Origin: an uncultured Fidelibacterota bacterium
GTDB taxonomy: Bacteria > Fidelibacterota > Marinisomatia > Marinisomatales > UBA1611
DNA length: 64,000 bases
Reading direction: 5' to 3'
Assembly: GCA_902562835.1 (NCBI GenBank)
Contig: CACEUX010000002.1
Coordinates: 35,104 to 99,103 of the forward strand
Shown here: in pieces, positions 4,578 to 64,000 of the stretch
Position numbering within the stretch: the first letter of the stretch is position 1
Layout of the letters: each line of letters opens with the position of its first letter
Position numbers and translations under genes: made by a program
The notes under the pieces: generated by a model
Databases searched by the model: none
The model's input: the letters and a program-made list of their open reading frames with translations, nothing else
What the model was told of the DNA's origin: nothing

Positions 4578-4692
4578 TTTCACGGCATATCTCCCGTTAT
4601 AAATTGATTAAAAATTTCTATACTGGCTCAATGTAAAATAAGCCTTTCCCTACTCGAATTTAGGAACTCTCTCGAGTAATTCAATCAAATTT

Positions 4693-50900: not shown

Positions 50901-52118
50901 CCATTCACCATGATATTCATTGCCATTCTCAAAAACATAGGAACCTTTACCATGCATTTTACCTTTTTTAAAATCACCCTCGTAAGTATCTCCATTTGCA
51001 TAGCTATAATTACCGTACCCATCCATAGATCCATTTTTCCAATTACCACTATATTTGCCACCAGAGACATAGGTAAACACTCCCTGCCCATGCTTTAAAT
51101 CATTTTTCCATTCTCCATCATATACATTCCCATTAGGATAAGTAAAAATACCCTGTCCATTTTTGACGCCATTCCAAAACTCACCTTTATATGTGTTACC
51201 ATTTTTAAAAGTAAAAATACCACGTCCAGTTCGCTTACCATCTTTGTAATCACCTACATACTTTTCTCCATCAGGATAGGTAAAAGTGCCTTCGCCATTC
51301 CTTTTACCATTTTGAAATTCACCAACATATTTGGTACCGTTCTTAAAACTATAGGTACCTTTTCCATGACTTTTATCATCCCTCCATTCACCTTCATATA
51401 TATTCCCATTTTTAAATGTAAATATTCCACTTCCTTCCATATTGCCATCATAAAACTCACCTTCATAAATATTTCCGTTTACATAGGTGAAAATACCTTG
51501 TCCATGTTTTTTACCATCTAAAAATTCACCTTTATACACATTGCCACTTTTAAACGTATATACCCCTCTTCCCTGTCTTTTATCATACTTAAAGTCACCT
51601 TCATAAGTATTTCCTTCACCATCTATTGAAATGCCTATCCCATGTTTCTTATCATCTTTCCATTCACCCTCATACTTTTTTCCAAATGTGTATATATAAG
51701 TTCCATTTCCATTCTTTTTATCTCCTTTCCACTCGCCTATATACGTATTTCCGAATGGATAGTAATATGTGCCCTCTCCTTCTTTTTTACCATTACTCCA
51801 TTCACCTTCATACTTTTCTCCACCAATAATATGAAGAGTACCCCAACCATGAAAAAGACCAGCCAGAAAACTTCCTACATATGTATGACTATCATCTTCA
51901 AATGTAAATGTTCCTTCTCCTTGCCGAATACCATTGACCCAATCACCGTCATATGTATCTCCATTTGGATATATATATTTACCAATACCATGACGCCTAC
52001 CGTCTTTTAAGTCCCCTGTATAATTAAAACCATATTGAATTACATCGTTCTCAGAATTCTCGTTCTGAGAAAATAAATAGGAGAAAAGAAATACATTTAA
52101 TATAAGAATGGCTTTCAT
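47997..52118 (-). CDS. Exported giant MORN-repeat protein (~58 tandem 23-aa repeats)
   Basis: Signal peptide MKAILILNVFLFSYLFSQ. A near-continuous array of Y-x-G-E/D-W-x(4)-K/R-x-G-x-G-x(5)-N-G units then runs to the C-terminus. No other domain is visible. Confidence 0.9.
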   Translation of the reverse strand: MKAILILNVFLFSYLFSQNENSENDVIQYGFNYTGDLKDGRRHGIGKYIYPNGDTYDGDWVNGIRQGEGTFTFEDDSHTYVGSFLAGLFHGWGTLHIIGGEKYEGEWSNGKKEGEGTYYYPFGNTYIGEWKGDKKNGNGTYIYTFGKKYEGEWKDDKKHGIGISIDGEGNTYEGDFKYDKRQGRGVYTFKSGNVYKGEFLDGKKHGQGIFTYVNGNIYEGEFYDGNMEGSGIFTFKNGNIYEGEWRDDKSHGKGTYSFKNGTKYVGEFQNGKRNGEGTFTYPDGEKYVGDYKDGKRTGRGIFTFKNGNTYKGEFWNGVKNGQGIFTYPNGNVYDGEWKNDLKHGQGVFTYVSGGKYSGNWKNGSMDGYGNYSYANGDTYEGDFKKGKMHGKGSYVFENGNEYHGEWKEDTMEGEGIYAASNGNYFEGTFNDGKLNGQGTFRSSIGETYKGEWVKGRMNGRGLYIFVNGNRYDGEWVDDKRIGYGIYTYVNGDLYEGYFSDGKRNGKGTFRDKNGDIYEGTWKEGQMDGQGYYFFVNGDTYSGQWVKNKKAGNGVFSFSDGSEYEGSFINDQMEGAGTFTYPDGRRFNGNWLEGKMEGYGTFSDLKGNRYEGDWKDNAYNGNGTFYFANGDQYEGEWKSGKYDGYGTFTDLGGNKYIGLWHQGLKHGKGTLYSSNTDKYVGIWLKDLRHGEGTQTYANGDQYEGEWLANKKAGKGLMKYNSGTIYDGEWELDMKHGTGTHDDKNGNVFNGFWANNKKDGKGKIIYSNGDIYEGDWSQDNIQGIGIYIYSTGDKYDGEWINNQKNGRGTFSSNLGEKYVGEWKDDLRSGQGTFTDGKGNKYKGEWRKDAMNGEGTYTDVLGHRYTGKWTNNKREGKGTYSFVGQKKNESLSTELLYFKGNRYVGEWKEDQFHGKGSFKYLNGDSYEGEWEMDKRSGKGIFISNQGEHYEGEWESDMKHGIGEMDFTNGDHYKGEWKQDMMSGDGQMVYVNGDNYKGYWVSNLKEGQGTYLYQNGEKYDGIWSNDVKSGEGTYKYNNGDIYQGNWADGIKEGYGIYKDSKGDIYEGEWKYDLKMGEGILKYANGDEYNGGWQNNLKTGQGKMKYANGDEYNGGWRNGKKEGEGKATFITDGITYIGNFKDDVFHGKGKYTSSIGDSYDGEWEFGKREGQGVFKSSIGDVYDGSWKNDMKHSKGVYQFADGSQYNGEWQNDEITGQGSFTFSNGSVCRGSFLNGKIDGQGTFDYINGDKYNGLFKSGKRDGQGTCIFSNDEKYIGEWKEDEIDGQGKYIYRNGNTYEGTFIDGVMEGQGTYSFNNGNLYIGEFKDGKREGLGVFTYENGNKYVGEFKNGTMDGQGTFTYPNGDKKVGVWKDGKPINN
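48010..52020 (-). repeat. 69-nt-periodic coding tandem repeat array (MORN units)
   Basis: The periodicity shows in the DNA. It also shows in the many spurious plus-strand and out-of-frame ORFs the track reports across this interval. A perfect 37-nt copy pair sits at 48785-48821 and 48854-48890, exactly 69 nt apart. Confidence 0.85.
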
Positions 52119-52298: not shown

Positions 52299-52526
52299 CT
52301 ACTTCTTCAATTTATCATATGTATTCCAAACATCCTTTATCAGATAAGATAAAAGAACTGTTATTAATACTGTAAAACCTAGAATCGATATATTGATTCC
52401 ATTACTTTCCTTGTAATCCATAATCAACCAAATTACAAAACCTACAAAACTAACTACTGAAATATTTAGGGCTGATAGTTTTATATATTTTATCATATTA
52501 TTATCAAAAAAACATTTAGGATTCAT
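52299..52526 (-). CDS. Small 2-TM membrane protein (75 aa)
   Basis: Two hydrophobic helices (LNISVVSFVGFVIWLIM and ISILGFTVLITVLLSYLI). Its ATG overlaps the stop of the upstream YwqK-like gene (ATGA), which suggests translational coupling. Confidence 0.5.
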   Translation of the reverse strand: MNPKCFFDNNMIKYIKLSALNISVVSFVGFVIWLIMDYKESNGINISILGFTVLITVLLSYLIKDVWNTYDKLKK

Positions 52527-53269
52527 TCACTGGCAGAGGAATCTTCAACCCATTCTTTTACAGATATTAATTCTCCTAAATTGTAGGTTTCTTCTAATTC
52601 CTTATGACCATCTTTATCCCAATAAACCCACAAACCTTCTTTTTTCACTCCTTTAAGAACGCCCTCAGATAACTTTTGTCCATTATTATGCCAGAATGTC
52701 CATAAACCCTCTCCTTTGCCATTTTTATAGACTCCTTCAGATTCTTTCTGACCTCTCTCATTCCAGTATGTCCATAGACCTTCTAATTCACCATTCTCAA
52801 AAGTTCCTTCCTTTATCTTATTTCCATTCTCATACCAGAAAGTCCATTTTCCATCTTTTTTGCCATTCTTAAACGTTCCGTTTGATTCTTTTTTGCCATT
52901 ATAGTACCACCATGTCCAAAGTCCTTCTCCCTTACCGAATTTGATATTCCTCTTAGATTTCATCTTACCATTATCATGCCACCTTTTCCATACTCCAACT
53001 TCTTTGCCTTCTTTAAATGTCCCTTCTTCTTTCTTTTGTCCATTTTTATACCAAAAGGTCCACAACCCTTCTTTTCTACCGTTTACTGCAAGACCTAAGA
53101 CAACTTTCTGGTCTCCAAGAATTTGATAAATTGAACCATTAACAGATGCCTCATCAGATTTATTTAAAAAAATACCATCCTTATACATTAAATCTTCTAG
53201 ATCGTATTCGTTTTGAGAAAGTCCAACTGTAAAAGATAATAGCGATATAATTATTAATTTTCGTTTCAT
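52523..53269 (-). CDS. Exported YwqK-like / MORN-variant repeat protein
   Basis: The signal peptide starts from the internal ATG (MKRKLIIISLLSF...). About 7 units follow of G-x-W-x-x-W-x-x-N-G-x-K-x-x-E-G-x-F-K-x-G-K-x-x-G, the MORN_2/YwqK antitoxin-type repeat. Confidence 0.75.
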   Translation of the reverse strand: MKRKLIIISLLSFTVGLSQNEYDLEDLMYKDGIFLNKSDEASVNGSIYQILGDQKVVLGLAVNGRKEGLWTFWYKNGQKKEEGTFKEGKEVGVWKRWHDNGKMKSKRNIKFGKGEGLWTWWYYNGKKESNGTFKNGKKDGKWTFWYENGNKIKEGTFENGELEGLWTYWNERGQKESEGVYKNGKGEGLWTFWHNNGQKLSEGVLKGVKKEGLWVYWDKDGHKELEETYNLGELISVKEWVEDSSASE

Positions 53270-53329
53270 AAGGTAGTAATTCAAATGAAAAGTCATGTTA
53301 TTGAGTAGATTGATATTTGTTTAAGACTA

Positions 53330-54877
53330 TTATTCCCATTCTATGGTCCCAGGAGGTTTAGAAGTAATATCATATACCACCCGATTAATTCCTCGGACAG
53401 AGTTGACAATTCTATTCGATATTTTTGATAATGTCTCTGAAGGCATACGAAACCAATCAGCAGTCATACCATCCGTACTAGTTACTGCCCTTAAACCCAA
53501 AAGATTTTCATAAGTTCGCTGGTCACCCATAACGCCAACAGTTTTGACTGTTATAAGTACACAAAATGCTTGCCATATTTCATTATATATCCCGTCCTCA
53601 TGTAGTACATCAATATAAATTTTATCTGCTTCTTGGAGAATATTGATACGTTCACGGGTTATTTCCCCAATAACCCTTACACCTAAACCAGGGCCTGGGA
53701 ATGGATGACGGTCAACCAATTTATCTGGAATTCCAAGTTCTCTACCTACTTCCCTAACTTCATCTTTGAACAGATCTCTTAATGGTTCAATTAATTTAAA
53801 TTTCATATTTTCTGGCAGACCGCCAACATTATGATGACTCTTTATAACATGTGCTGACTTACCTTTACTGATACCACTTTCTATTACATCTGGGTATAAA
53901 GTCCCCTGAGCTAAATAATCCATTTTATTCATTTCACTGGCAATTCGTTCAAACGAGAAAATAAATTGATTCCCTATAATTTTTCGTTTTTTTTCCGGGT
54001 CAGAAACTCCTTCTAGTTTTGAAAAAAATATTTCTGATTCATCATGAGCTTCGATGTTGATACCTAAACCGCTTTCGAGTGCGGTAACGCATTCACTCAC
54101 CTCATTTTTTCGCATTAGACCATGATCAATAATAACTGCTTTAGCACGGTCACCTATGGCCTTATGGACTAATGCAGCCACTACTGTAGAATCTACACCA
54201 CCACTTACACCTATAAGTACATTATCCTCACCAACTATTGATTGAATATTTTCTACTTGTTCTTGGATAAAATTAATTGGTGTCCAGCTTGGAGAACATT
54301 TAGCAATATTAAATAAAAAGTTGGATAATACTTTAAGACCTTCTTCTGTATGATGAACCTCGGGATGAAACTGAGTCGCTACGCGCGTTTGATCTAAATT
54401 TGACATAGCCGCCACAATTCCGTTTGAAGAATAAGCTAAAATCTGCCACCCGTCTGGTAATTTCTCCACACGATCTCCATGGCTCATCCAAACTTTGGAA
54501 GAAGAAATACCTGAGAATAATCCTTTCTGGATTTGAATATCTATATCTGTAAAACCATACTCTCCTTTTCCGTCAGATATAACATGGCCACCCCCATACT
54601 GAGCCATAACATGGAGCCCATAACAAATTCCTAAAATCGGAAATTCACTGTCTAGTATTTTAACATCAAATTGAGGGGCATCATCCTCATAAATACTACT
54701 CGGTCCCCCAGATAAAATTATTGCAGCAGGATTTCTATTTATAATTTCATTTAACTTTGTCTCTGGTGATAAGATTTCTGAAAATACATTACTCTCTCTT
54801 ACCCTTCTTGCAATCAGTTGGGTGTATTGAGAACCAAAATCAAGAATTACAACACCATTTTTGTATATATTATTCAT
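53330..54877 (-). CDS. guaA: GMP synthase (glutamine-hydrolysing)
   Basis: A GATase domain (ILGICYG, HPE), the ATP-PPase P-loop SGGVDSTV, and the C-terminal dimerisation motif ending PPGTIEWE. Confidence 0.95.
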   Translation of the reverse strand: MNNIYKNGVVILDFGSQYTQLIARRVRESNVFSEILSPETKLNEIINRNPAAIILSGGPSSIYEDDAPQFDVKILDSEFPILGICYGLHVMAQYGGGHVISDGKGEYGFTDIDIQIQKGLFSGISSSKVWMSHGDRVEKLPDGWQILAYSSNGIVAAMSNLDQTRVATQFHPEVHHTEEGLKVLSNFLFNIAKCSPSWTPINFIQEQVENIQSIVGEDNVLIGVSGGVDSTVVAALVHKAIGDRAKAVIIDHGLMRKNEVSECVTALESGLGINIEAHDESEIFFSKLEGVSDPEKKRKIIGNQFIFSFERIASEMNKMDYLAQGTLYPDVIESGISKGKSAHVIKSHHNVGGLPENMKFKLIEPLRDLFKDEVREVGRELGIPDKLVDRHPFPGPGLGVRVIGEITRERINILQEADKIYIDVLHEDGIYNEIWQAFCVLITVKTVGVMGDQRTYENLLGLRAVTSTDGMTADWFRMPSETLSKISNRIVNSVRGINRVVYDITSKPPGTIEWE

Positions 54878-55637
54878 CTAAAAATTGCTGTTTTAATTCT
54901 TCTAAGTAGGATTCATTAGTAAGCCTATAATGTACTGGTGTGATACTTACATAGTTTTCTGATAGAGCTTTTCCATCAAAATCTATTGATTTATCTTCAT
55001 CAATAACTTTTCCTTTTATCCAATAATAAGTCTCTTGCCTTGGATTATGTCTTTCTTCAAAATCATCTAAAAAGTTTTGATTTCCTTGTCTAGTAATTCG
55101 AAATCCATTTATCATTTTTTCATTACATTCTGGTACATTTACATTAAGTAAAGTTCCTCTGGGTAAATTATTTTTCATTACATGTTTCACAACATCAGTT
55201 GCTACTTTTTTAGCAGTTTCATAATCATCCGATTTAAAAGAGGCTAAGCTAATTGCTATAGATGATATCCCTAGCATAGCACCCTCAGCTGCTGCTGAAA
55301 CTGTGCCTGAATAAATAAGGTTAGTTCCTAGATTTGCACCTTGGTTTATTCCTGATATTAATATATCTGGATAATCAATCATTAGTGACCTAACTGCAAT
55401 CTTTGCGCAGTCTGCTGGGGTACCACTAACTGCATAACCTTTAAATCCGTTTTCCCTTTCAATTTCTTGAACCCTTATTGGATTGTTAATTGTTATTGAA
55501 TGACTTTTAGCACTTTGTTCATTATCGGGTGCGACTACAAAAGTATGTCCTAATTTATTCATAGCCTGCCAGAGAGCATATATACCTTTAGAATAAATAC
55601 CATCATCATTTGTGATTAAAATTCTAGGTTTATTCAT
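54870..55637 (-). CDS. surE: 5'/3'-nucleotidase SurE
   Basis: The N-terminal ILITNDDGI motif, GINQGANLG and SGTVSAA. Confidence 0.92.
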   Translation of the reverse strand: MNKPRILITNDDGIYSKGIYALWQAMNKLGHTFVVAPDNEQSAKSHSITINNPIRVQEIERENGFKGYAVSGTPADCAKIAVRSLMIDYPDILISGINQGANLGTNLIYSGTVSAAAEGAMLGISSIAISLASFKSDDYETAKKVATDVVKHVMKNNLPRGTLLNVNVPECNEKMINGFRITRQGNQNFLDDFEERHNPRQETYYWIKGKVIDEDKSIDFDGKALSENYVSITPVHYRLTNESYLEELKQQFLDE

Positions 55638-56470
55638 TTAAGAATAGAAATCAAAGTTGAGAGTTTCGTTTTCATGCTACTTCGATCAACTATGCAATCA
55701 ATAAAACCTTTTTCTAGGAGGAATTCAGACCGTTGAAATCCCTTGGGTAAATCCTGCCCAATAGTTTGTTTAATAACTCTAGGCCCAGCGAATCCTATCA
55801 AGGCTCCGGGCTCTGCTAAAATCACATCACCTAACATACCATAGCTTGCTGTAACTCCGCCAGTAGTCGGATCGGTTAGAATTGGTATGAAAAGCCCTCC
55901 ATCATTAGAAAATTTTGCTAATCGAGTACTGGTCTTTGCTAGTTGCATTAGTGAAATAGCACCTTCCTGCATTCGCGCACCACCGGATGAGCAAATTAAT
56001 ATAAAAGGTACATTTTTTTCTCCAGCCATGACTAAGGCCCTTGCTACTATCTCACCGACAACTGAACCCATACTGCCACCGATAAATTTAAAATTCATTA
56101 CTCCTAAAACAACTTGTTGATCATTGATATTTCCATCATAAACATTTATAGCATCACTTTCTCCAGTTTTATTTATTGCATCTATTATCTGATCTTTATA
56201 GGCCTTATTTGCATTAAATCCTAAAAAGTCATGGGGTACAATATCCTGAAAATGCCTTGTTGAAGTCCCTTTATCTAAAAGTAATTCAACATACAATCCA
56301 GGAGAAACGCGAAAATGATGATTACAATGATGGCACACCGAAAGTTTTTTTTCAAGCTCTGGACGATAAATGATCTCATTACAAGATGGGCACTTGTCCC
56401 ACAAACCATCTGGGATTGCTTTTTTCTCTGAATCTTTTAGATTTTTATCTTTTCGTTTAAACCAAGCCAT
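55634..56470 (-). CDS. accD: Acetyl-CoA carboxylase carboxyltransferase beta subunit
   Basis: An N-terminal Cys4 zinc ribbon (CPSCNE...CHHCNHH) and the carboxyltransferase motifs GGSMG and SGGARMQEG. Confidence 0.93.
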   Translation of the reverse strand: MAWFKRKDKNLKDSEKKAIPDGLWDKCPSCNEIIYRPELEKKLSVCHHCNHHFRVSPGLYVELLLDKGTSTRHFQDIVPHDFLGFNANKAYKDQIIDAINKTGESDAINVYDGNINDQQVVLGVMNFKFIGGSMGSVVGEIVARALVMAGEKNVPFILICSSGGARMQEGAISLMQLAKTSTRLAKFSNDGGLFIPILTDPTTGGVTASYGMLGDVILAEPGALIGFAGPRVIKQTIGQDLPKGFQRSEFLLEKGFIDCIVDRSSMKTKLSTLISILK

Positions 56471-56479
56471 AATCGAATT

Positions 56480-56923
56480 TTATTTCTTAAGACACATTAC
56501 CAAGGCATCGCTGCCATCGCTATAATAGTTAGTTCGAGAACTAATATTTTTAAAACCGACACTAAGATAAAGATTGATAGCGGGGAAATTAATGTGTTTA
56601 ACTTCTAAAAATACGGATGATTTAATTGGTAATTGATCTAAAAAACTTTTGAGAAGTAGTTTACCATAACCCCTGCCTTGCATAGAGCTTTTAACAGCCA
56701 TATTTATTATATGTATTTCATTTTCAAATTTTCGAGTCATGCAATATGCTACAACCTCATTAGCTTTAACAATTATCAAAGTTTTTCTATCATTTCCATT
56801 ATTAAGTTCGGCAACAAGCATCTCAAGCGACCAATTATCATTTGTGAAAACCTGCCTCTCTATTTTAAGTATATCAGAGACATCATTAATTGTCGCTTCG
56901 CGTATTATTTTATATTCATTCAC
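56480..56923 (-). CDS. rimI: Ribosomal-protein-alanine N-acetyltransferase
   Basis: A 147-aa GNAT with the motif A sequence SSMQGRGYGKLLL. It lies in the conserved tsaE-tsaB-rimI cluster. Confidence 0.8.
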   Translation of the reverse strand: MNEYKIIREATINDVSDILKIERQVFTNDNWSLEMLVAELNNGNDRKTLIIVKANEVVAYCMTRKFENEIHIINMAVKSSMQGRGYGKLLLKSFLDQLPIKSSVFLEVKHINFPAINLYLSVGFKNISSRTNYYSDGSDALVMCLKK

Positions 56924-57560
56924 GAGGTGTCATTTCAAAAGGGGCTATATAATCAGGTACAAGGTCATAGGGTGTTTTTATGACCCAATCATCATAGAAA
57001 ATAGAAGCTAATACTCCGATAAATTCAGCAGACGGCACTGCTTTTTTGATATCAGAATAACTGCTCATTATTTTTTCACAATTCCATTGGAACCCATCTT
57101 GGATATTTTTGGAATATTGGTCTATATCTCCAACGACCGCCTTATTAATTATTTTTGGGATAGAGTTTTTCCATGAAAATTCCTGATAAAAAACCTTTTT
57201 TGAATGAGAATGACTAATGCCATTATGAGGTTCGTATTCCCTTAAACTAAAAGCCAATGATAGTAAAGTTGGAACAGGAACAATTGGAAGGCCTAAAGCA
57301 TAAGCCATACCCTTAGCAAAACCTAATCCTATACGTAACCCAGTGAAAGAACCAGGGCCAATACTTACGGCTATTGCATCAATGTCACTAAGCGATTTAT
57401 TTGATTGTTTAATAGCATCTTGAGCAAAATTAGCGAGGTTTTCATTGTGTTGTCGGTAAGTACTTTTCTCTGATATACCTATTAAATTTCCATTCTCAAT
57501 AATGGAAATGCCGCAAATTAAAGAGGATGTCTCAATTGAAAGAATATTTTTAGAAATCAA
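56916..57560 (-). CDS. tsaB: tRNA N6-threonylcarbamoyladenosine (t6A37) biosynthesis protein TsaB
   Basis: N-terminus ILSIETSS; GPGSFTGLRIG motif. Confidence 0.88.
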   Translation of the reverse strand: MISKNILSIETSSLICGISIIENGNLIGISEKSTYRQHNENLANFAQDAIKQSNKSLSDIDAIAVSIGPGSFTGLRIGLGFAKGMAYALGLPIVPVPTLLSLAFSLREYEPHNGISHSHSKKVFYQEFSWKNSIPKIINKAVVGDIDQYSKNIQDGFQWNCEKIMSSYSDIKKAVPSAEFIGVLASIFYDDWVIKTPYDLVPDYIAPFEMTPRE

Positions 57561-57987
57561 ACTGTATACCTTTTATCTCAATTTGCCTTGATTTGGAATT
57601 GTTTTGAATTCTAGCAAATTTGACCTGAATCACATCATTATCTAAAATATCGCCAATAATATCAGCCCATTCGATAACTGTTATTCCATCTTCGGCTGTT
57701 AAGTACTCCTCACCACCAATATTTAAAAAATCTTTTGACCCCTCTAGTCTATAGGCATCTATATGGTAAAGTACAGAGTCAGTACCTACATATTCTGAAA
57801 CAAGTTTAAATGTAGGTGAGCCCACGTTTTCTAAAATACCTAATGCTTTAGCTAGACCCTTAGTAAATGTTGTTTTCCCTGTACCCAGATTACCAATCAA
57901 GGCGATTACATTGCCTTTGGAAATACTTTGTGCAAACTTTCTGGCTAAATAATATGTATCATCCACAGATTGGCTATTGAATACCAC
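57550..57987 (-). CDS. tsaE: tRNA t6A37 biosynthesis ATPase TsaE
   Basis: Walker A GNLGTGKTTF, the SPTF motif, HIDAYRL and the C-terminal IEW. Confidence 0.9.
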   Translation of the reverse strand: MVFNSQSVDDTYYLARKFAQSISKGNVIALIGNLGTGKTTFTKGLAKALGILENVGSPTFKLVSEYVGTDSVLYHIDAYRLEGSKDFLNIGGEEYLTAEDGITVIEWADIIGDILDNDVIQVKFARIQNNSKSRQIEIKGIQFDF

Positions 57988-59546
57988 TAGTTCTTACCCT
58001 TCATAATTGCTAGAGGAATTATCATTTCTTCCAAACTTATTCCGCCATGTTGAAAAGAATTATTGAATTTTTCTTGATATTTATGTGCCTCGTTCGGATA
58101 AACAAAATAATTATCATCTTTTGCAATAACATAACTTGGCTGCGCTCCAAATACGGGGAGCCTATATTTTTCTGGTTCTTTTATAACAAGAGCATGCTTT
58201 TCATTCGTATTAAGGTTTCTGCCATATTTATATCGGACTCCTGAAGATGCATTCCGATCAGCTGCAACCATAACATCATTCTGTACGCGAATACTCCCAT
58301 GGTCACTTGTCATTATTACAGTAAAACCTGTATCTGCTAAATGCTTGAGAACCTGAAATAACCAGGAATGTTCCAACCAATATTTTACAGTAGTCCTGTA
58401 ACTAGATTCGTTGGGAACCATTTCTTTTAGAACATCAGTTTGTGAGCTCTTGTGAGCAAGTATATCTACAAAATTAACAACAAGAGCAATCATATCTTTA
58501 TTGGCATAGTCTTTGATTCGACCCTCAAATTTCTTACCCTCTTCTACTGCCCATATCTTATGATAATGTACTGATTTATCAGTCATCCCTGACCTCTTAA
58601 TCTGATCAATAAGAAATTCTTTTTCATGCTGATTTAAACTTGCTGCATCAGAAACCATGTCAAGTCTTTGTTTTGGATATTTCGATACCATTTCATCAGG
58701 AAACATGCCACAAAAAATAGCATTCCTCGAATATGGAGTAGCAGTAGGTATTAGTGATAGACAATATTTAAGATCAATCGTAAACAATGTTTCTAATAAA
58801 GGCACCATTGCTTTAAAATGGTCATAACGCATACAATCTAAGACCAATAAACAAATTTTATTTCCTTTCTCCAGATCTGGTTTTAGGTAGCTTCTAAATA
58901 TATCATTTGGAAGGACAGGGCGATTACTGTCACTCATCCAAGTATGATAATGAGCTTGGATAAAGTTGGAAAATTCTTTGTTACATGTTTTGATCTGTTC
59001 TTCTAAAATGTTACTAAGGCCGGTTTCTCTATAAATGTCAAATTTTAATTGCCAATTGACCAGCCTATCATAGAGATTCCACCAATCATCAGCATCAAGT
59101 TGCTCATTTATTAATTGATCAATCTCCTGAAATTCTTTTAGGTATTCACTTGTAGCTTTTTGCTCAAGAAGTTTATCCTCTTCGAGTGCTTTTTTACATG
59201 CCATAAAAATTTGGCTGGGATTAACAGGCTTAATTAAAAATTGTTGTACCTGCTCAGTCATTGCCTCATCCATAAGCCATTCATCCTCTGTCTTGGTAAT
59301 CATTATAATAAGTTGACTTGAACGGTCTTTTTTTATTGCTGCAAGAGTTTCAAGGCCATCCATCCCTGGCATAGACTGATCGAGAAGTATTAGGTCAAAG
59401 GCGTTTTCTTTACATAATTCAATGGCATCTTGACCATTTGAGGCTTTAGATAAAGAATAACCTTTTTCTTCTAAAAATAATATATGAGGTTTTAGATGTT
59501 CAATTTCATCATCTACCCATAGAATATTTCCTCTAGAATAAGTCAT
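57987..59546 (-). CDS. porX: PorX-type response regulator (REC domain + PglZ/alkaline-phosphatase-superfamily domain)
   Basis: ILWVDDEIEHLKPHILFLEEKGY...DLILLDQSMPGMDGLETL...FLIKPVNPSQI is the characteristic PorX receiver domain. The C-terminal ~380 aa are PglZ-like (VLDCMRYD...TSDHGS). The 519-aa length matches the PorX architecture. Confidence 0.85.
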   Translation of the reverse strand: MTYSRGNILWVDDEIEHLKPHILFLEEKGYSLSKASNGQDAIELCKENAFDLILLDQSMPGMDGLETLAAIKKDRSSQLIIMITKTEDEWLMDEAMTEQVQQFLIKPVNPSQIFMACKKALEEDKLLEQKATSEYLKEFQEIDQLINEQLDADDWWNLYDRLVNWQLKFDIYRETGLSNILEEQIKTCNKEFSNFIQAHYHTWMSDSNRPVLPNDIFRSYLKPDLEKGNKICLLVLDCMRYDHFKAMVPLLETLFTIDLKYCLSLIPTATPYSRNAIFCGMFPDEMVSKYPKQRLDMVSDAASLNQHEKEFLIDQIKRSGMTDKSVHYHKIWAVEEGKKFEGRIKDYANKDMIALVVNFVDILAHKSSQTDVLKEMVPNESSYRTTVKYWLEHSWLFQVLKHLADTGFTVIMTSDHGSIRVQNDVMVAADRNASSGVRYKYGRNLNTNEKHALVIKEPEKYRLPVFGAQPSYVIAKDDNYFVYPNEAHKYQEKFNNSFQHGGISLEEMIIPLAIMKGKN

Positions 59547-59595
59547 ATATAAATCCTTATAAACTTATATAAAAAAATTTCTCAACGAATATTAT

Positions 59596-62148
59596 CTATT
59601 TTGAAGTCATTTTCCATACGCCATCCCAATCTTTACCAGGAGGGTTATCTTTGAACATAATACATCTTTTGATATAAACTGCCGATGGAGTGGTATTCCT
59701 CGCAGTAAAATGTTCCTCCATTTTTTCAGCACTTTTAAACGCATTGATAGCTTTTTCCCACTCTTGCTGGTAGTAATAATCAAGACCATTTTCAAATTTT
59801 CTTACAAGACCAACGATTGAATTATTCACATTACTCTTTTGTGCGACTAATTCATAAACTTTTACTGGTATTTTTTTACCTTTGACCTGAACAAAATCTA
59901 GAAACCTAAAAATAAAATTATCTTTGGCAGCTTCATATATATTTTCTCCGACAAAATTGTATACGCCATAATGTTTAGCAGATGATTCAAGTCTTGCTGC
60001 GAGATTGACTGTATCACCCATCATAGTATAATTCATTCTCATTTCTGAACCCATATTACCAGTAACCATTTTACCACTATTTAATCCAATCCGATGTTGC
60101 ATTGAGTAAACGATATCTGGCCAATCATTTTCTTTTTGCCATTTTTCTCTTAATCCATTTAATGCCTCTTGCATGGCTAAAGCTGTAGTGCAAGATTTTA
60201 ATTCATGGTCTATAACAGGAGCAGGTGCACCATAAAATGCAACAATTGCATCACCAATATATTTATCAAGTGTACCTTCATTATCTAAGATAACCTGTGA
60301 CATAACTGTTAAATATTCGTTCATTAAAGATACCATTCGCTCAGGTTCAAGTGCTTCAGAGAATGTTGAAAAATCTTGTATATCAGAAAAAAATGCTGTG
60401 TGATGTCCTTCTACACCGCCAAGTTTTGGGGCTTGTTTTTCTTCATACATTTTGTCTAACACCTTAGGAGCAATATAGGTTCCAAAAGTCTCCCTTAAAA
60501 ATTTCTTATCCTGTTGTTCATGCAGAAACTGAAAAATTATATTGCTAGCATAGGTAAAGACTAAACCTGCCATTGGAGCAATGATCGGCATAACATACGA
60601 CTCACCTAGATTTGGTAAAGCCACTTGTAATTGATTATAGAAATTGTCATAAAGAGAATTTGGAAGCAGATTTGATATTAATGATTTCCAAAACCACAAA
60701 TAGTCATTAGCAAACATGCCCATAGCAAATGCGTAATAAAGTAATCCCTCAGAAAAAATAATTAAACCTGCCACAATTGGATGTAGATCTATTTTAGTTA
60801 AAAGTGCATATGCGATCATACATAAAGAGAATATCAATAAAAAGTTTGCTAAAGGATAGGAAGCTCCTTCAGCTAAATAACGGGTGGTTTTGCCTCCAAA
60901 TACATTGATATAATTTTCATGAAGGATGGTTTGGATAGCATTTGCATGTGTCTCCATTCCAGGTGTTAATTGACTTAAATCCATATAATTATAAAATGGA
61001 GTGGATTTAACATCATGTATAACCTCTACATTCACACCAAGTATAACGATCTTATTGAAAAAGGGTGATTTTGTTATATCAAAATCCTCTCCAATCCCCA
61101 TCAAAGACATCATTTCATATCTTTCAGAATCATCCTCTATTGCAAGGATCCAATCAGGCACCTCACCGGCAATAAATTGACTCATCCAATCTATATCTTC
61201 TGGTAAATCGTAATCTTGTGTATCTAAAACTTGTGATAGAGAGAATCTTGGAAATGTACCCCAAGGTTTATAGTTATCATTGCCTGGAAATTTATATCCA
61301 GATGGCGGACCGTAATAATTAACCAAAAAATTGTTTGTTCGTCCATACGATCTGATTCGTAGATCTCCAAACTCCCAAGTCAATTCTTTAGCATTAAAGA
61401 TAGGTACTACTGTATCTGAAATATCTAAAAAGGATTTCACGCATTTTAATCCCAATGTAAGATATGCCGTCTCTGGCTTATGTTCCATATATCCTGCAAT
61501 ACTGTATTGACGAGAAAAACCATCAGTATCTAACATATCATTGATCAGACCCGTTTCAGGCCCAGCATTCATTATTTCAGGCACAGGATAAGCTATATAT
61601 GTAGGAGGTATTCTTGTTGGCTCACGAACCATCTTTACGTCCATTACAATGGCCGTACCATTTTTTTGAGCGTTTTTAATAGACTCTGCTAATAGACTAT
61701 CTCCATGACCTGGTAGATACTGTTGAAATTCACTTGGTAGACTACCGCTAACGCTTCTGAGATATTCTGATCTGGCATCTGGTGAATCGAACTGAACATC
61801 AAAAGCAATGACGCTTGCCCCTGCCTTACTTAAATTATCCACAGCCCTTGCCCATATATCGCCTCGAGGATATGGCCAAGGCACTTTTTTATCTTTAAGA
61901 ATTCTCCATGTTTCATCGTCAACTTCCACAAGCACTACATCAGTTCCTTTATTGATAATTGTTGAATCACTTGCACGCCAACCAGTAAGCGGACCTCTCA
62001 CACTGTTGAAACGATAATCATATGTTTTAAGTTCTAAAAAATCAAAAAACCCAACCCAATGAAAAAAGCATGTAAAAATGATAGCACCCATTGTTAGGCT
62101 GAGGTCAACCACATGATTTTGTAAAAACCGTTTAATATTATTTATCAA
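59596..62148 (-). CDS. CHASE2-sensor class III adenylate/guanylate cyclase with C-terminal TPR-like tail
   Basis: TTG start. TM1, then a ~370-aa extracytoplasmic CHASE2-like domain (ELKTYDYRF...), then 3-4 TM helices. The cyclase domain carries FFSDIQDFSTFSE, KYIGDAIVAFYGAP and GDTVNLAARLES (nt ~59981-60019). Confidence 0.88.
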   Translation of the reverse strand: MINNIKRFLQNHVVDLSLTMGAIIFTCFFHWVGFFDFLELKTYDYRFNSVRGPLTGWRASDSTIINKGTDVVLVEVDDETWRILKDKKVPWPYPRGDIWARAVDNLSKAGASVIAFDVQFDSPDARSEYLRSVSGSLPSEFQQYLPGHGDSLLAESIKNAQKNGTAIVMDVKMVREPTRIPPTYIAYPVPEIMNAGPETGLINDMLDTDGFSRQYSIAGYMEHKPETAYLTLGLKCVKSFLDISDTVVPIFNAKELTWEFGDLRIRSYGRTNNFLVNYYGPPSGYKFPGNDNYKPWGTFPRFSLSQVLDTQDYDLPEDIDWMSQFIAGEVPDWILAIEDDSERYEMMSLMGIGEDFDITKSPFFNKIVILGVNVEVIHDVKSTPFYNYMDLSQLTPGMETHANAIQTILHENYINVFGGKTTRYLAEGASYPLANFLLIFSLCMIAYALLTKIDLHPIVAGLIIFSEGLLYYAFAMGMFANDYLWFWKSLISNLLPNSLYDNFYNQLQVALPNLGESYVMPIIAPMAGLVFTYASNIIFQFLHEQQDKKFLRETFGTYIAPKVLDKMYEEKQAPKLGGVEGHHTAFFSDIQDFSTFSEALEPERMVSLMNEYLTVMSQVILDNEGTLDKYIGDAIVAFYGAPAPVIDHELKSCTTALAMQEALNGLREKWQKENDWPDIVYSMQHRIGLNSGKMVTGNMGSEMRMNYTMMGDTVNLAARLESSAKHYGVYNFVGENIYEAAKDNFIFRFLDFVQVKGKKIPVKVYELVAQKSNVNNSIVGLVRKFENGLDYYYQQEWEKAINAFKSAEKMEEHFTARNTTPSAVYIKRCIMFKDNPPGKDWDGVWKMTSK

Positions 62149-64000
62149 AACCTATACCCTAATGAAAGGTTAAAACCTGAACTATTAGTTGACCAGTTCT
62201 CTCTTTTTTCATCGATCTTGCCATCTCCATTATTATCTTTTTGATCAGAACTGTGACCTGAGTTATTGACCATCCTAATTGAGCTAATAAAACTTAATGT
62301 CAACTTATCAAGAATATCCCAATCACCACCTATTTTACCACCATAAAGTTCTATAGAAGAATTATCTTTTTTCCCATTTGTTGTAAAATCTATACCACCT
62401 CTTAATCTCAGTTTATTTTTATAAAGACCATATTGACCAGATGTACTTAGGGACATCCAGGTATTGGTCTGCTGCTGTGCTTCATTATTTTCATCTAGAA
62501 ACGGGACTATAATTTTAGATTGATTAAAGGATGAAGTAGTTTTCAGACCAAATTGAAAACGGGTAGACAGTGTTGCAGATATTGATTGAGTTTCTGCTTT
62601 TTGGAAAAAATAGTCTTTATTTCTTTCAGATGCTAAGTTATCTGTATAGGAAATTGAATTCAAATTTATTGATGAGGTCGTTGTGAAATTATTAAAATTC
62701 CCTGGAATATTCACTGATGCCATCACATTAAGAGCTTGCGAATTTTCTCTATTATCTCCAAGATAGTTACCATACTGATCTGTATCGATCGAATCAATAC
62801 CATTCGTTCTACCTATAGATTGAATATTCAATATAATTGATGGTGCCCCTGGCCCAGGCACCAAGGTAGTATTAACAGAAAATGTCCTAGTTGCAATTGG
62901 ATGCACAACAAGTTCTGACAATTTATTATCACGGTATTTGTAGCCCAAAACAAACATCAAACGCCTGCCTAGAGTTGATAATCTGTCGTTTATAGTAAAC
63001 TCACGAATATTGTTGGTCAAATATGGATTACCAAAACTTCTATATCCTGGTCCAAGTTGTCTGTATTGTATCAAAACATTATTAAATGAGTAACTACCCT
63101 TAACACGAAAATAATAAGCTGATGCTGGCATATTCAAGAATGCCCTAAACTGATTGTCCTCTGCTGCAATCGGATCAATGGGCAATATTGGTGTCATAAA
63201 TAATGGATTAACAGTAAAAACATCCTCATATGCATCTATAAAATCACCTAATGTAGAAACATCATAACTACCCATCAGTTTACCATCCACAAGCGTATCC
63301 ATTAAAATATCCAATGAATCTTTTTTTGCTGCACCTGCCCAGATATTATAATTCGTTAGGCTCATATTCCAACCCATTTGAAATAGAAGCTTCCTATTAT
63401 CCATAGCTGCCTCTAGATCAAATCCCATTACTAAATTTTCTTGTGGTGTTCCATCATCCCAATTCTTTTTCTTAATTTTTACAGTATCCCCATTTGCTAA
63501 CGAATCGATAAACTGAGATAATGTGTATTCTTGAATAAGTGAATCACCAAAGATGGTTGTATCAACTCTAAATAGGCTACTACCAGGGGCACGTATTTTA
63601 ATTTTCTCGAAGTCATCCTTAGCCTTAAGAAAGTGGATACCTGCTTTATAACGATTATTTAAGGAGAAAGCTAACCTTGATGCGGTTATGTCTCTAGGGA
63701 ACGTATAACCCTTACGATTAAATAGGTATACCCGGTTGCCAAATTCATCATAACGTATATCAGTTGTCAATAATTCATAAGCCCGATTTAGACCATTTTG
63801 AAATTGAACATCTCTGGTCAGTTTACCGCTAACTGTTTGTATCTCAACCGTCCCTTTAAGGTCAAATGCAAATAAATCCCTGCCAAGAAGATTAATGCCA
63901 TCAAATCCGAAGCCATAATTAATATTCACATCAATATGACGACCATTTACTTTTTTTCCATCAAGAATAAAAGGTGAAATAGAGGGATAAACATCGCCAT
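62145..64000 (-). CDS. Outer-membrane beta-barrel protein of unknown function (C-terminal ~618 aa; continues past the right edge)
   Basis: The ORF-track start at 63929 is a GTG inside an open frame. I translated upstream to nt 63996-63998, the last full codon before the window edge, and found no stop (..GDVYPSISPFILDGKKVNGRHID-V-NINYGF..). The sequence shows an alternating amphipathic beta-strand pattern and the C-terminal signature FNLSLGYRF. Its stop overlaps the cyclase start (TTGA). Confidence 0.6.
   Translation of the reverse strand, partial: GDVYPSISPFILDGKKVNGRHIDVNINYGFGFDGINLLGRDLFAFDLKGTVEIQTVSGKLTRDVQFQNGLNRAYELLTTDIRYDEFGNRVYLFNRKGYTFPRDITASRLAFSLNNRYKAGIHFLKAKDDFEKIKIRAPGSSLFRVDTTIFGDSLIQEYTLSQFIDSLANGDTVKIKKKNWDDGTPQENLVMGFDLEAAMDNRKLLFQMGWNMSLTNYNIWAGAAKKDSLDILMDTLVDGKLMGSYDVSTLGDFIDAYEDVFTVNPLFMTPILPIDPIAAEDNQFRAFLNMPASAYYFRVKGSYSFNNVLIQYRQLGPGYRSFGNPYLTNNIREFTINDRLSTLGRRLMFVLGYKYRDNKLSELVVHPIATRTFSVNTTLVPGPGAPSIILNIQSIGRTNGIDSIDTDQYGNYLGDNRENSQALNVMASVNIPGNFNNFTTTSSINLNSISYTDNLASERNKDYFFQKAETQSISATLSTRFQFGLKTTSSFNQSKIIVPFLDENNEAQQQTNTWMSLSTSGQYGLYKNKLRLRGGIDFTTNGKKDNSSIELYGGKIGGDWDILDKLTLSFISSIRMVNNSGHSSDQKDNNGDGKIDEKRENWSTNSSGFNLSLGYRF

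What the first reader, a model, noticed from the sequence alone, without database searches (positions are those of the whole stretch)
57987..64000. Outer-membrane barrel, CHASE2 nucleotidyl cyclase and PorX encoded as one string
A beta-barrel OMP gene (C-terminus LSLGYRF) overlaps by 4 nt (TTGA) the start of a CHASE2-sensor class III adenylate/guanylate cyclase. Forty-nine nt downstream of the cyclase lies a PorX-type response regulator (REC + PglZ/alkaline-phosphatase domain).

PorX is the orphan regulator of the T9SS in Porphyromonas. As I recall from published work, its PglZ domain has phosphodiesterase activity on cyclic and linear oligonucleotides. A periplasm-sensing nucleotide cyclase placed directly beside porX, together with a dedicated OM barrel, suggests a signalling axis running from an OM or periplasmic cue to a cyclic nucleotide to PorX and then to T9SS. 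I know of no description of such an axis. T9SS cargo is present in the same window (801-4583).
Basis: inference. Interest (0 to 1): 0.65.

Follow-up and report, generated by a model that had tools for sequence, protein, structure and literature searches.

The report
cAMP sensor cassette parked beside porX
In this marine Marinimicrobia genome a four-gene envelope-sensing unit that ends in a cAMP-making enzyme sits directly upstream of the type IX secretion regulator PorX, but the evidence shows two separate modules held together by phylum-wide gene order, not a cyclic-nucleotide-to-PorX signalling pathway.

Summary
**Observation.** The three genes are real, on the minus strand. They are an outer-membrane barrel (cut by the window end; about 930 aa in full), a CHASE2 class IIIb adenylate cyclase with all catalytic residues, and a true PorX.

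- The cyclase is the last gene of a fixed four-gene cassette: secreted Ig-like protein, FecR-like protein, barrel, cyclase.
- PorX is the first gene of a fixed string: porX-tsaE-tsaB-rimI-accD-surE-guaA.

**Conservation.** Across 60 Marinimicrobia species every junction inside either module is kept in 98-100% of loci. The cyclase|porX junction is direct in only 34 of 49 loci. In at least one lineage it holds a 7-kb insert: a lipoprotein gene plus giant T9SS cargo.

**Outside the phylum.**
- In 80 Bacteroidota-type porX loci no cyclase is present; tsaE follows porX in 52 of 72.
- The four related CHASE2 cyclases sampled elsewhere lack PorX.

**Literature.**
- P. gingivalis PorX does not cleave cAMP or cGMP.
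- The TsaE-family kinase UbK1 phosphorylates PorX.

**Verdict.** This is a juxtaposition of two modules. A direct cAMP-to-PorX link is unlikely (about 0.1). The cassette is a new variant of the known OMP/FecR/CHASE2 sensing theme.

The parts
62145..64000 (-). C-terminal 617 codons of a ~930-aa outer-membrane beta-barrel protein, the third gene of the sensor cassette. Its 5' end lies beyond the window.
   Evidence: The ORF is 5'-open and ends LSLGYRF. Full-length orthologues are 894-990 aa. The AF2 model of the 89%-identical L002 orthologue has pLDDT 81.6: signal peptide, two N-terminal beta-sandwich domains, then a ~26-strand barrel. The best PDB fold hits are only generic large barrels: MtrB, FimD/PapC and TonB-dependent transporters, TM 0.33-0.45. 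There is no Pfam or NCBIfam hit.
59596..62148 (-). CHASE2-sensor class IIIb adenylate cyclase, the last gene of the cassette.
   Evidence: PF05226 113 bits and PF00211 78.6 bits. The best PDB match is P. aeruginosa CyaB, 3r5g, E 2e-31. D589/D633 (metal), K629/T708 (substrate) and N715/R719 (transition state) are invariant in 66 sequences. Hydropathy gives TM1 at 16-34 and TMs at 428-446 and 458-476, flanking the periplasmic CHASE2 domain. A 4-nt TTGA overlap joins it to the barrel gene.
59547..59595 (-). 49-nt AT-rich spacer: the boundary between the sensor cassette and the porX string.
   Evidence: No terminator-like hairpin was found. In relatives this gap ranges from 1 nt to 171 nt, or holds 0.8-7.7 kb of extra genes. 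It is the only junction of the block that is frequently broken: 34 of 49 direct.
57987..59546 (-). PorX: response-regulator receiver domain plus PglZ/alkaline-phosphatase-like phosphodiesterase, the T9SS regulator.
   Evidence: NF052313 equivalog, 624.6 bits against a cutoff of 300. Full-length matches to F. johnsoniae PorX 8ted (E 1e-123) and P. gingivalis PorX 7pv7 (E 5e-118). The acceptor Asp56 (Pg D58) and the nucleophile Thr270 (Pg T272) are conserved.
57550..57987 (-). TsaE/UbK-family P-loop protein: the FCB-wide conserved neighbour of porX.
   Evidence: PF02367 124 bits and TIGR00150 114 bits. It overlaps the porX stop by 1 nt. Walker A (GTGKT), SPT, HxDxYR (HIDAYR) and EW motifs are visible in the sequence. 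PorX|TsaE is adjacent in 32 of 32 Marinimicrobia loci and in 52 of 72 Bacteroidota-type loci. UbK1 phosphorylates PorX in P. gingivalis (PMC13241743).
53330..57560 (-). Housekeeping string co-linear with porX-tsaE: tsaB (56916-57560), rimI (56480-56923), accD (55634-56470), surE (54870-55637), guaA (53330-54877).
   Evidence: Pfam hits. Overlaps or gaps are 9 nt or less. The same order is kept in all informative Marinimicrobia loci, except that rimI is missing from some (6 of 29).

Best explanation
Two independent functional modules lie head to tail on one strand.

**Module 1: a trans-envelope sensor.**
- It has four genes: a secreted tandem-Ig-like protein, a periplasmic FecR-domain protein, a ~26-strand outer-membrane barrel with two N-terminal beta-sandwich domains, and an inner-membrane CHASE2 adenylate cyclase.
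- Inferred mechanism: a cue at or beyond the outer membrane is relayed through the barrel and the FecR-like protein to the periplasmic CHASE2 domain. This switches the cytoplasmic class IIIb cyclase on, and cAMP is made.
- The cAMP receptor is unknown and is probably encoded elsewhere.

**Module 2: porX-tsaE plus housekeeping genes.**
- PorX is a standard T9SS regulator.
- Its conserved genetic partner, which is also its experimentally shown partner in P. gingivalis, is the downstream TsaE/UbK-family protein.

**Why they are adjacent.** The cyclase-porX adjacency is inherited Marinimicrobia gene order (part of a super-operon-like block) and not a signalling connection.

**Shown:** gene identities, catalytic residues, module boundaries, conservation statistics.

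**Inferred:** direction of signal flow in module 1, cAMP as the product, and the absence of a cAMP-PorX interaction.
For: **Cassette integrity.**
- A|FecR adjacent in 45/45 loci, FecR|OMP 46/47, OMP|cyclase 56/56.

**porX string integrity.**
- PorX|TsaE 32/32, TsaE|TsaB 32/32, AccD|SurE 29/29, SurE|GuaA 26/26.

**The boundary is weak.**
- Cyclase|PorX is direct in 34/49 loci. Its median gap is 61 nt, against 6 nt or less at most other junctions (FecR|OMP 43 nt, TsaB|AccD 443 nt).
- There are at least 5 state changes on the cyclase tree. One of them lies between the near-identical sisters L034 and L058.
- In L074/L075 a lipoprotein gene plus giant T9SS-CTD cargo (~7 kb) sits between the cyclase and porX, while both modules stay intact.

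**Outside the phylum.**
- Bacteroidota-type porX loci: cyclase catalytic domain in 0/80, TsaE immediately downstream in 52/72. The positive control was valid.
- CHASE2 cyclases at ~26% identity pair again with a FecR protein plus an OMP or TPR protein, with no PorX (L072, L073). One stands alone among housekeeping genes (L156).

**Literature.**
- PorX did not cleave cAMP or cGMP (PMC9757075).
- ubK1 lies downstream of porX in 81 P. gingivalis genomes and phosphorylates PorX (PMC13241743).
- FecR+CHASE2 operons occur in Burkholderia and P. aeruginosa (PMC5192318).
- In S. meliloti the outer-membrane protein NsrA acts upstream of CHASE2 adenylate cyclases (PMC7529298 abstract; PMC5498481).
Against: - The adjacency persists across the whole phylum, down to roughly 37-45% cyclase identity. 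It is always on the same strand.
- In two deep lineages the gap is only 1-2 nt (L067, L071), so co-transcription is likely there.
- No terminator is predicted in the window's 49-nt spacer.
- Where the two genes are separated, the intervening genes are T9SS cargo, a thematically related content.
- In two outgroup loci the genes flanking the OMP/FecR/cyclase triad encode candidate cNMP receptors: a cNMP_binding protein and a GAF-sigma54 activator. Position next to such a triad could therefore mark the receiver.
- The cAMP/cGMP cleavage data are from P. gingivalis PorX only, and binding was not assayed.
Confidence: 0.7

Rival explanations
1. An outer-membrane or periplasmic cue activates the CHASE2 cyclase. 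The cAMP (or cGMP) it makes is bound or hydrolysed by the PglZ domain of the PorX encoded next door, and this tunes T9SS expression or activity.
For: - Same-strand adjacency is conserved across Marinimicrobia, with gaps as small as 1-2 nt.
- The PorX PglZ domain is a nucleotide phosphodiesterase with a wide active site (PMC9757075).
- All catalytic residues are present in both enzymes.
- T9SS cargo genes occupy the slot between the two genes in some lineages.
- In outgroups, candidate cNMP receptors sit next to the analogous triads.
Against: - P. gingivalis PorX did not cleave 3',5'-cAMP, 3',5'-cGMP, c-di-GMP, c-di-AMP or cGAMP. Only cA3/4/6 and linear dinucleotides were substrates.
- A class III cyclase makes mononucleotide cNMPs, not oligoadenylates (established enzymology).
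- The junction is the weakest in the block and accepts 0.8-7.7 kb inserts.
- No cyclase is present in any of 80 Bacteroidota porX loci.
- Housekeeping genes in the same block are conserved at least as strongly.
Confidence: 0.1
2. Indirect, transcription-level coupling. The cassette and porX-tsaE are co-transcribed as one long operon, so the sensor and the T9SS regulator are made together. The cassette may monitor the cell surface or the giant T9SS adhesins (lipoprotein + cargo slot). No second messenger acts on PorX itself.
For: - Tight packing on one strand, with no predicted terminator in the spacer.
- Gaps of 1-2 nt in L067 and L071.
- A lipoprotein gene plus T9SS type A CTD giants lie directly after the cyclase in 13 of 49 species. 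Where downstream DNA was available (L074/L075), these are followed by porX.
Against: - No transcript evidence. The three metatranscriptome runs found give only scattered 150-200 nt contigs and none across the junction.
- The spacers are AT-rich and variable and could carry promoters.
- In L061 the cargo is followed by an unrelated regulator and pilus-like genes, with no porX within 5 kb.
- Co-transcription with accD/surE/guaA shows that operon membership here does not imply shared function.
Confidence: 0.15

Closest known systems
PorX of Porphyromonas gingivalis (PDB 7pv7/7pva/7pvk) and Flavobacterium johnsoniae (8ted, 8p6f), with the downstream UbK1/TsaE-family kinase
   Same: - Full-length REC + three-helix linker + PglZ architecture, about 40% identity.
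- Conserved acceptor Asp and Thr nucleophile.
- Above the NCBIfam equivalog cutoff.
- tsaE/ubK gene immediately downstream, as in 81 P. gingivalis genomes.
   Different: - The organism is a Marinimicrobia, not a Bacteroidota.
- The UbK1 target Tyr79 of P. gingivalis PorX is Ser77 here and Ala in F. johnsoniae.
- The upstream neighbour is a cyclase cassette, which no Bacteroidota-type locus sampled has.
- PorY and SigP partners were not identified.
Sinorhizobium meliloti NsrA (outer-membrane protein) acting upstream of the CHASE2 adenylate cyclases CyaD1/CyaD2/CyaK, then cAMP and Clr
   Same: An outer-membrane protein is required upstream of inner-membrane CHASE2 class III adenylate cyclases that make cAMP (PMC7529298 abstract; PMC5498481).
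   Different: - Here the barrel is ~930 aa with no family assignment, it is translationally coupled to the cyclase gene, and a FecR-like and an Ig-like protein accompany it.
- No Clr/CRP-type receptor was identified.
- Sequence homology of the barrel to NsrA was not tested.
FecR-domain protein + CHASE2 sensor operons (Burkholderia 'BiofilmReg' RR-LysM/FecR-CHASE2 histidine kinase; P. aeruginosa PA4035-type pair)
   Same: An exported FecR-domain protein is encoded next to a CHASE2 membrane sensor (PMC5192318). This is seen here in all 47 loci that contain the FecR gene.
   Different: - The output is a cyclase, not a histidine kinase.
- There is no LysM domain.
- A large OM barrel is inserted between the FecR gene and the sensor gene.
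Slam/DUF560-type barrel + FecR protein + CHASE2 cyclase triads in other phyla
   Same: The same three-part logic: OM barrel, FecR-domain partner, CHASE2 class III cyclase.
   Different: The Marinimicrobia barrel has no TPR or SlipAM (PF04575) match and is predicted as a ~26-strand barrel with N-terminal Ig-like domains. The gene order also differs.
P. aeruginosa CyaB (PDB 3r5g), class IIIb adenylate cyclase
   Same: Best structural-sequence match of the catalytic domain (E 2e-31), with the Lys/Thr substrate pair and all metal and transition-state residues.
   Different: CyaB has a MASE2 membrane sensor (established knowledge), not CHASE2.

Membership tests
PorX (T9SS response regulator, NCBIfam NF052313) | Whole-protein score above the curated equivalog cutoff | tested here: met
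   624.6 bits against a cutoff of 300, aligned over 512/513 profile positions.
PorX (T9SS response regulator, NCBIfam NF052313) | N-terminal receiver domain with the phospho-acceptor Asp, and C-terminal PglZ/alkaline-phosphatase domain with the Thr nucleophile | tested here: met
   PF00072 + PF08665. Asp56 aligns with Pg D58. Thr270, the second T of PTAT, aligns with Pg T272 and with the residue mutated in 8thp.
PorX (T9SS response regulator, NCBIfam NF052313) | Organism possesses a T9SS and its cargo | tested here: inconclusive
   One cargo protein with a type A CTD lies in the window (TIGR04183, 27.3 bits against 23), and there are more in related loci.
PorX (T9SS response regulator, NCBIfam NF052313) | Works with the PorY kinase and the SigP ECF sigma factor | not testable with these tools
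   A 387-aa histidine kinase (28324-29487) and an ECF sigma factor (40777-41394) are in the window, but neither reaches the cutoff of any specific model.
Class III nucleotidyl cyclase, subclass IIIb adenylate cyclase | Guanylate_cyc catalytic domain with the two metal-binding Asp residues | tested here: met
   PF00211 78.6 bits. D589 and D633 are invariant in 66 sequences.
Class III nucleotidyl cyclase, subclass IIIb adenylate cyclase | Substrate-specifying Lys plus Thr (IIIb; Asp in IIIa) rather than the Glu/Cys of guanylate cyclases; transition-state Asn and Arg | tested here: met
   K629, T708, N715 and R719 are invariant. They were placed by alignment to CyaB 3r5g, and the assignment of roles rests on established class III enzymology.
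Class III nucleotidyl cyclase, subclass IIIb adenylate cyclase | Makes cAMP | not testable with these tools
   This needs an enzyme assay or complementation of an E. coli cya mutant.
CHASE2 sensor proteins | N-terminal TM, periplasmic CHASE2 domain, then a TM bundle before the output domain | tested here: met
   PF05226 113 bits over residues 25-441. Hydropathy peaks at 16-34, 428-446 and 458-476.
Outer-membrane beta-barrel protein | Signal peptide, C-terminal aromatic residue, closed antiparallel barrel | tested here: met
   The C-terminus is ...GYRF. The AF2 model has pLDDT 81.6 with ~26 long strands. All top PDB fold hits are OM barrels.
Slam / DUF560 (type XI secretion) barrel, TonB-dependent transporter or usher families | Family-specific domains (TPR + SlipAM; plug + TonB box; usher plug and N/C domains) | tested here: not met
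   The full-length orthologue has no Pfam or NCBIfam hit. Fold matches are only generic, TM 0.45 or less.
FecR-CHASE2 sensing modules | Exported FecR-domain protein encoded with a CHASE2 sensor | tested here: met
   PF04773, E 1.9e-12, in the L002 orthologue. It is present in every locus with enough upstream DNA. The gene itself lies beyond the window end.
Proposed cyclase-to-PorX signalling pair | Linkage conserved beyond background synteny and in independent lineages | tested here: not met
   It is the weakest junction of the block, 34/49. No cyclase is present in any of 80 Bacteroidota porX loci. No PorX lies beside the outgroup CHASE2 cyclases.
Proposed cyclase-to-PorX signalling pair | The cyclase product is a PorX ligand or substrate | not testable with these tools
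   Published negative result for cAMP/cGMP cleavage by P. gingivalis PorX (PMC9757075). Binding is untested, and so is the Marinimicrobia protein.

The most novel reading that the evidence does not exclude
In Marinimicrobia the envelope-sensing cassette, the variable lipoprotein + giant T9SS adhesin slot and porX-tsaE form one functional island. cAMP made by the CHASE2 cyclase in response to a surface or cargo-related cue would act on PorX, either by binding at the PglZ or receiver domain or through an intermediate such as the TsaE/UbK protein. This would adjust type IX secretion and give PorX a second-messenger input not known in Bacteroidota.
Probability: 0.1. Interest if true: 0.7.

Novelty: new variant of a known kind. 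Interest (0 to 1): 0.3.

Why it matters
**If the link were real.** PorX, an orphan regulator of a virulence-relevant secretion system, would gain a defined upstream signal. CHASE2 domains, whose ligands are unknown, would gain a defined downstream target.

**What the evidence supports instead.** A more modest picture:
- The cassette (secreted Ig-like protein, FecR-like protein, unclassified ~26-strand barrel, CHASE2 adenylate cyclase) is a clean, phylum-wide and previously undescribed version of the outer-membrane-to-CHASE2 sensing theme. It occurs in an abundant, uncultured ocean lineage.
- The porX-tsaE pairing is shown to extend from Bacteroidota to Marinimicrobia. This broadens the genomic basis of the recently published UbK1-PorX connection.

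**A caution.** The case also shows that even phylum-wide, tightly spaced adjacency can be background synteny.

Tried and rejected
I therefore could not search the genome for CRP/cNMP-binding proteins, PorY or core T9SS genes, and could not do a PorX-anchored survey by phylum.

**Transcript evidence.**
- Only three metatranscriptome runs turned up, holding 3% or less of the words.
- Laid on 52400-64000 they gave 13 short contigs on the barrel, cyclase, accD, guaA and MORN genes. None crossed the cyclase|porX junction.
- Co-transcription is therefore unresolved.

**Promoter/terminator scan.**
- Counts were no higher than in shuffled sequence, and there was no terminator in the spacer.
- The spacers of relatives show no conserved motif by eye.

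**Searches that gave little.**
- The exact-protein look-up of the L038 giant ORF failed, probably because of the start-codon choice. I solved this by using the lipoprotein instead.
- The PorX homologue search returned only Marinimicrobia in its top 120, so it was of no use for other phyla.
- The nearest 50%-cluster representatives P0122 and P0127 lie on 3-kb contigs. P0127 still showed a PorX N-terminus 2 nt after the cyclase.

**Fold searches.**
- The barrel matched only generic large barrels, and protein A only generic Ig-like sandwiches. Neither gives a functional assignment.

**Ideas considered and rejected.**
- The barrel as a Slam, TonB-dependent or usher family member: no supporting domain.
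- The GAF-GGDEF protein at 38381-40132 as a cAMP-to-c-di-GMP-to-pGpG bridge to PorX. It has an intact GGEEF motif, but I could see no NKFDE-type cNMP-binding GAF signature by eye, and it lies 20 kb away.

**Not tested.**
- An earlier scan note claims that a Calditrichota clade has the same arrangement. I could not test this.

Full report
**1. What is in the sequence**

Every gene between 52.5 kb and the window end is on the minus strand and tightly packed.

- *Barrel.* The ORF at 62145..63998 is open at its 5' end and ends in ...LSLGYRF. Its TGA stop and the TTG start of the next gene share the four bases TTGA.
- *Cyclase.* The gene at 59596..62148 (850 aa) carries a CHASE2 domain (PF05226, 113 bits, residues 25-441) and a class III cyclase domain (PF00211, 78.6 bits, residues 584-765).
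- *PorX.* After a 49-nt AT-rich spacer with no terminator-like hairpin comes a 519-aa REC+PglZ protein at 57987..59546.
  - It scores 624.6 bits against the NCBIfam equivalog for PorX (cutoff 300).
  - It aligns end to end with the crystallised PorX proteins of F. johnsoniae (8ted, E 1e-123) and P. gingivalis (7pv7, E 5e-118).
  - The acceptor Asp56 and the PglZ nucleophile Thr270 are in place.
- *T9SS cargo.* The protein at 801-4583 passes the T9SS type A sorting-domain model.

**2.

A scan of one genome per species with the cyclase returned 60 loci. All but one of those whose titles name a taxon are titled Marinimicrobia/Neomarinimicrobiota/Fidelibacterota; the exception is a MAG titled Gracilimonas. 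Cyclase identity ranged from 50 to 96%. They show three things.

- *The barrel is truncated.* It is really 894-990 aa, and the window holds only its last 617 residues.
- *The cassette has four genes.* Upstream of the barrel there are always two more genes.
  - One encodes a ~390-aa secreted protein with no family hit.
  - The other encodes a ~225-aa exported FecR-domain protein (PF04773, E 1.9e-12).
- *The structure predictions are confident but give no function.*
  - Barrel (39 orthologues, pLDDT 81.6): two N-terminal beta-sandwich domains and a barrel of ~26 strands. It resembles MtrB, ushers and TonB-dependent transporters only generically.
  - The ~390-aa protein (pLDDT 81.5): tandem Ig-like sandwiches.

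Downstream, porX overlaps tsaE by one base. It is followed by tsaB, rimI, accD, surE and guaA, with overlaps or gaps of 9 nt or less.

**3. The cyclase is catalytically complete and predicted to make cAMP**

- Its best solved relative is P. aeruginosa CyaB (3r5g, E 2e-31).
- The metal-binding Asp589 and Asp633, the substrate pair Lys629/Thr708 (the class IIIb adenylate-cyclase signature, not the Glu/Cys of guanylate cyclases) and the transition-state Asn715/Arg719 are invariant in 66 aligned sequences.
- Which residue plays which role rests on established class III cyclase enzymology.

**4. Is the cyclase-porX adjacency more than background?**

It is conserved.
- 34 of the 49 informative species loci have porX directly after the cyclase.
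- Deeper lineages, with cyclases roughly 37-45% identical to the window's over the aligned stretch, keep the full order A-FecR-barrel-cyclase-PorX-TsaE-TsaB-(RimI)-AccD-SurE-GuaA-GlmS-LppC.
- In two of these the gap is only 1-2 nt.

But the right control is the rest of the block.

| Junction | Directly adjacent |
|---|---|
| A\|FecR | 45/45 |
| FecR\|barrel | 46/47 |
| barrel\|cyclase | 56/56 |
| cyclase\|PorX | 34/49 |
| PorX\|TsaE | 32/32 |
| TsaE\|TsaB | 32/32 |
| AccD\|SurE | 29/29 |
| SurE\|GuaA | 26/26 |

- The cyclase|porX junction is thus the one frequently broken junction, apart from the optional rimI slot (rimI absent in 6 of 29 loci).
- Its median gap is 61 nt, longer than at any other directly adjacent junction.
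- On the cyclase tree, adjacency changes state at least five times, once between the nearly identical sisters L034 and L058.
- Housekeeping genes with no conceivable role in T9SS signalling are linked at least as tightly. Adjacency here therefore carries little functional information.

**5. What breaks the junction**

- In 13 species the cyclase is followed by a ~315-aa lipoprotein gene with no family hit, and then by giant secreted proteins.
- Walking down one such contig (L074/L075) showed the order cassette - lipoprotein - giant proteins - porX-tsaE-tsaB-accD-surE, so the backbone is kept and about 7 kb has been inserted.
- The inserted giants carry T9SS type A sorting domains above the curated cutoff (33-36.8 bits against 23).
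- In L047 only the lipoprotein gene lies between the cyclase and porX.
- In L061 the cargo is followed by an unrelated regulator and pilus-like genes, with no porX within 5 kb.
- The junction is therefore a permissive slot. That its content is T9SS cargo is the best remaining circumstantial point in favour of a thematic link.

**6. Outside the phylum**

- *PorX-anchored scan.* A metagenome scan used a PorX alignment headed by the F. johnsoniae sequence. It returned 80 loci at 55-92% identity to that sequence, so Bacteroidota-type by similarity.
  - None has a class III cyclase catalytic domain within 7 kb. 56 of them have at least 2.5 kb of upstream DNA.
  - tsaE lies immediately downstream in 52 of 72 informative loci.
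  - The same cyclase query detects outgroup cyclases at 36% identity with E 1e-46 to 1e-51, so the negative result is meaningful.
- *Cyclase-anchored look-ups.* The family drops sharply from ~40% to ~26% identity outside the Marinimicrobia-type cassette loci. Three outgroup loci were examined.
  - L072: CHASE2 cyclase - TPR/SlipAM barrel - FecR protein - cNMP-binding Fe-S protein.
  - L073: TPR protein - FecR protein - CHASE2 cyclase - GAF sigma-54 activator.
  - L156: a CHASE2 cyclase among housekeeping genes.
  - None has PorX.
- The OMP/FecR/CHASE2-cyclase triad is therefore a self-contained, recurring sensor, and porX-tsaE is a self-contained, recurring pair. Only in Marinimicrobia do they abut.

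**7. Literature**

  - PorX cleaved cA3, cA4, cA6, pApA, pApG and pGpG.
  - A class III cyclase makes exactly those non-substrates.
- A 2026 paper (PMC13241743) found ubK1, a TsaE/YjeE-family kinase, downstream of porX in 81 P. gingivalis genomes. It showed that UbK1 phosphorylates PorX at Tyr79.
  - The window's TsaE has the Walker A, SPT, HxDxYR and EW motifs.
  - The Tyr79 position is Ser77 here and Ala in F. johnsoniae.
- Precedents for module 1:
  - FecR-domain genes next to CHASE2 histidine kinases in Burkholderia and P. aeruginosa (PMC5192318).
  - The S. meliloti outer-membrane protein NsrA acting upstream of the CHASE2 adenylate cyclases CyaD1/D2/CyaK (PMC7529298; PMC5498481).

**8. 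Most likely mechanism**

- *Module 1* is a trans-envelope sensor. A cue at the outer membrane is passed through the barrel and the periplasmic FecR-like protein to the CHASE2 domain, the class IIIb cyclase is activated, and cAMP is made. The flow is inferred by analogy with FecA-FecR and NsrA-CyaD. The receiver of the cAMP is unknown.
- *Module 2* is the ordinary PorX regulator with its TsaE/UbK partner.
- Their adjacency is inherited gene order in a lineage with strongly conserved synteny.

**9. Limits**

I could not look for a CRP-type cAMP receptor, PorY/SigP or core T9SS genes in this genome. I also could not survey other FCB phyla systematically.
- Metatranscriptome coverage was too thin to test co-transcription.
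It also claimed a Calditrichota clade with the same arrangement. I could not test that claim, and I use it only as a lead.

**10. Verdict**

- The cassette is a new variant of a known kind of envelope-to-CHASE2 sensor.
- Interest is modest.

Noticed in passing
L074:10001-16836; L075:10001-17545; L061:7901-15071; L062:8431-19372 (relatives; not in the window): In 13 of 49 Marinimicrobia species a ~315-aa lipoprotein gene (no family hit) and one or more giant secreted proteins follow the cyclase directly. These giants reach 5260 aa and carry FG-GAP, cadherin-like, CARDB and beta-helix domains. Three giants tested in two lineages carry T9SS type A sorting domains. In L074/L075 the insert lies exactly between the cyclase and porX. 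In L047 the lipoprotein gene alone does.
   Followed up: partly
window 57550-57987 and 57987-59546; L076-L155: porX-tsaE adjacency extends from Marinimicrobia (32/32 loci, 1-nt overlap in the window) to Bacteroidota-type loci (52/72). This matches the published UbK1-PorX kinase-substrate pair of P. gingivalis. The mapped phosphosite Tyr79 is not conserved, however: it is Ser77 here and Ala in F. johnsoniae.
   Followed up: partly
window 38381-40132 (-): A membrane GAF-GGDEF protein with an intact RYGGEEF motif, so a probable diguanylate cyclase. c-di-GMP breakdown gives pGpG, which is a known PorX substrate. No cNMP-type (NKFDE) GAF signature was evident by eye.
   Followed up: partly
window 47997-52118 (-) and 52523-53296 (-): A 1373-aa protein made of 36 MORN repeats (PF02493, 933 bits) and, next to it, a 257-aa exported MORN_2-repeat protein. 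They lie directly downstream of guaA. In relatives L068-L070, glmS follows guaA instead.
   Followed up: no
L020:544-879, L039:671-1006, L047:249-584 and others, upstream of cassette gene A: The same short spurious ORFs (…LVHQRFVHFGPLVLEADS…) recur on both strands upstream of the cassette. They look like translated ribosomal RNA, which suggests that an rRNA operon borders the cassette across the phylum. This was not checked with an RNA model.
   Followed up: no
P0124, P0125, P0338, P0342-P0368 (protein ids): Many Marinimicrobia orthologues of the cyclase are 984-1137 aa long. They carry an extra N-terminal ~180-320 residues ahead of the part that aligns with the window's protein. The nature of this extension was not examined.
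   Followed up: no
L072:8001-15767; L073:5332-11847: Outgroup CHASE2 cyclases (~26% identity) again sit with a FecR-domain protein plus a TPR/SlipAM (Slam-like) barrel or a TPR protein. Next to these genes lie candidate cyclic-nucleotide receivers: a cNMP_binding Fe-S oxidoreductase and a GAF sigma-54 activator.
   Followed up: partly
window 28324-29487 (-) and 40777-41394 (-): A 387-aa HisKA/HATPase histidine kinase and an ECF sigma factor lie in the same window as porX. They could be PorY- and SigP-like partners, but neither reaches the cutoff of any specific NCBIfam model.
   Followed up: partly
L034:8028-8203 versus L058:8505-14504: Two species with nearly identical cyclases (tree branch lengths 0.01-0.02) differ in this region. 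L058 has the lipoprotein + giant gene insert after the cyclase, while L034 has porX 171 nt downstream. This points to a recent gain or loss at the junction.
   Followed up: no
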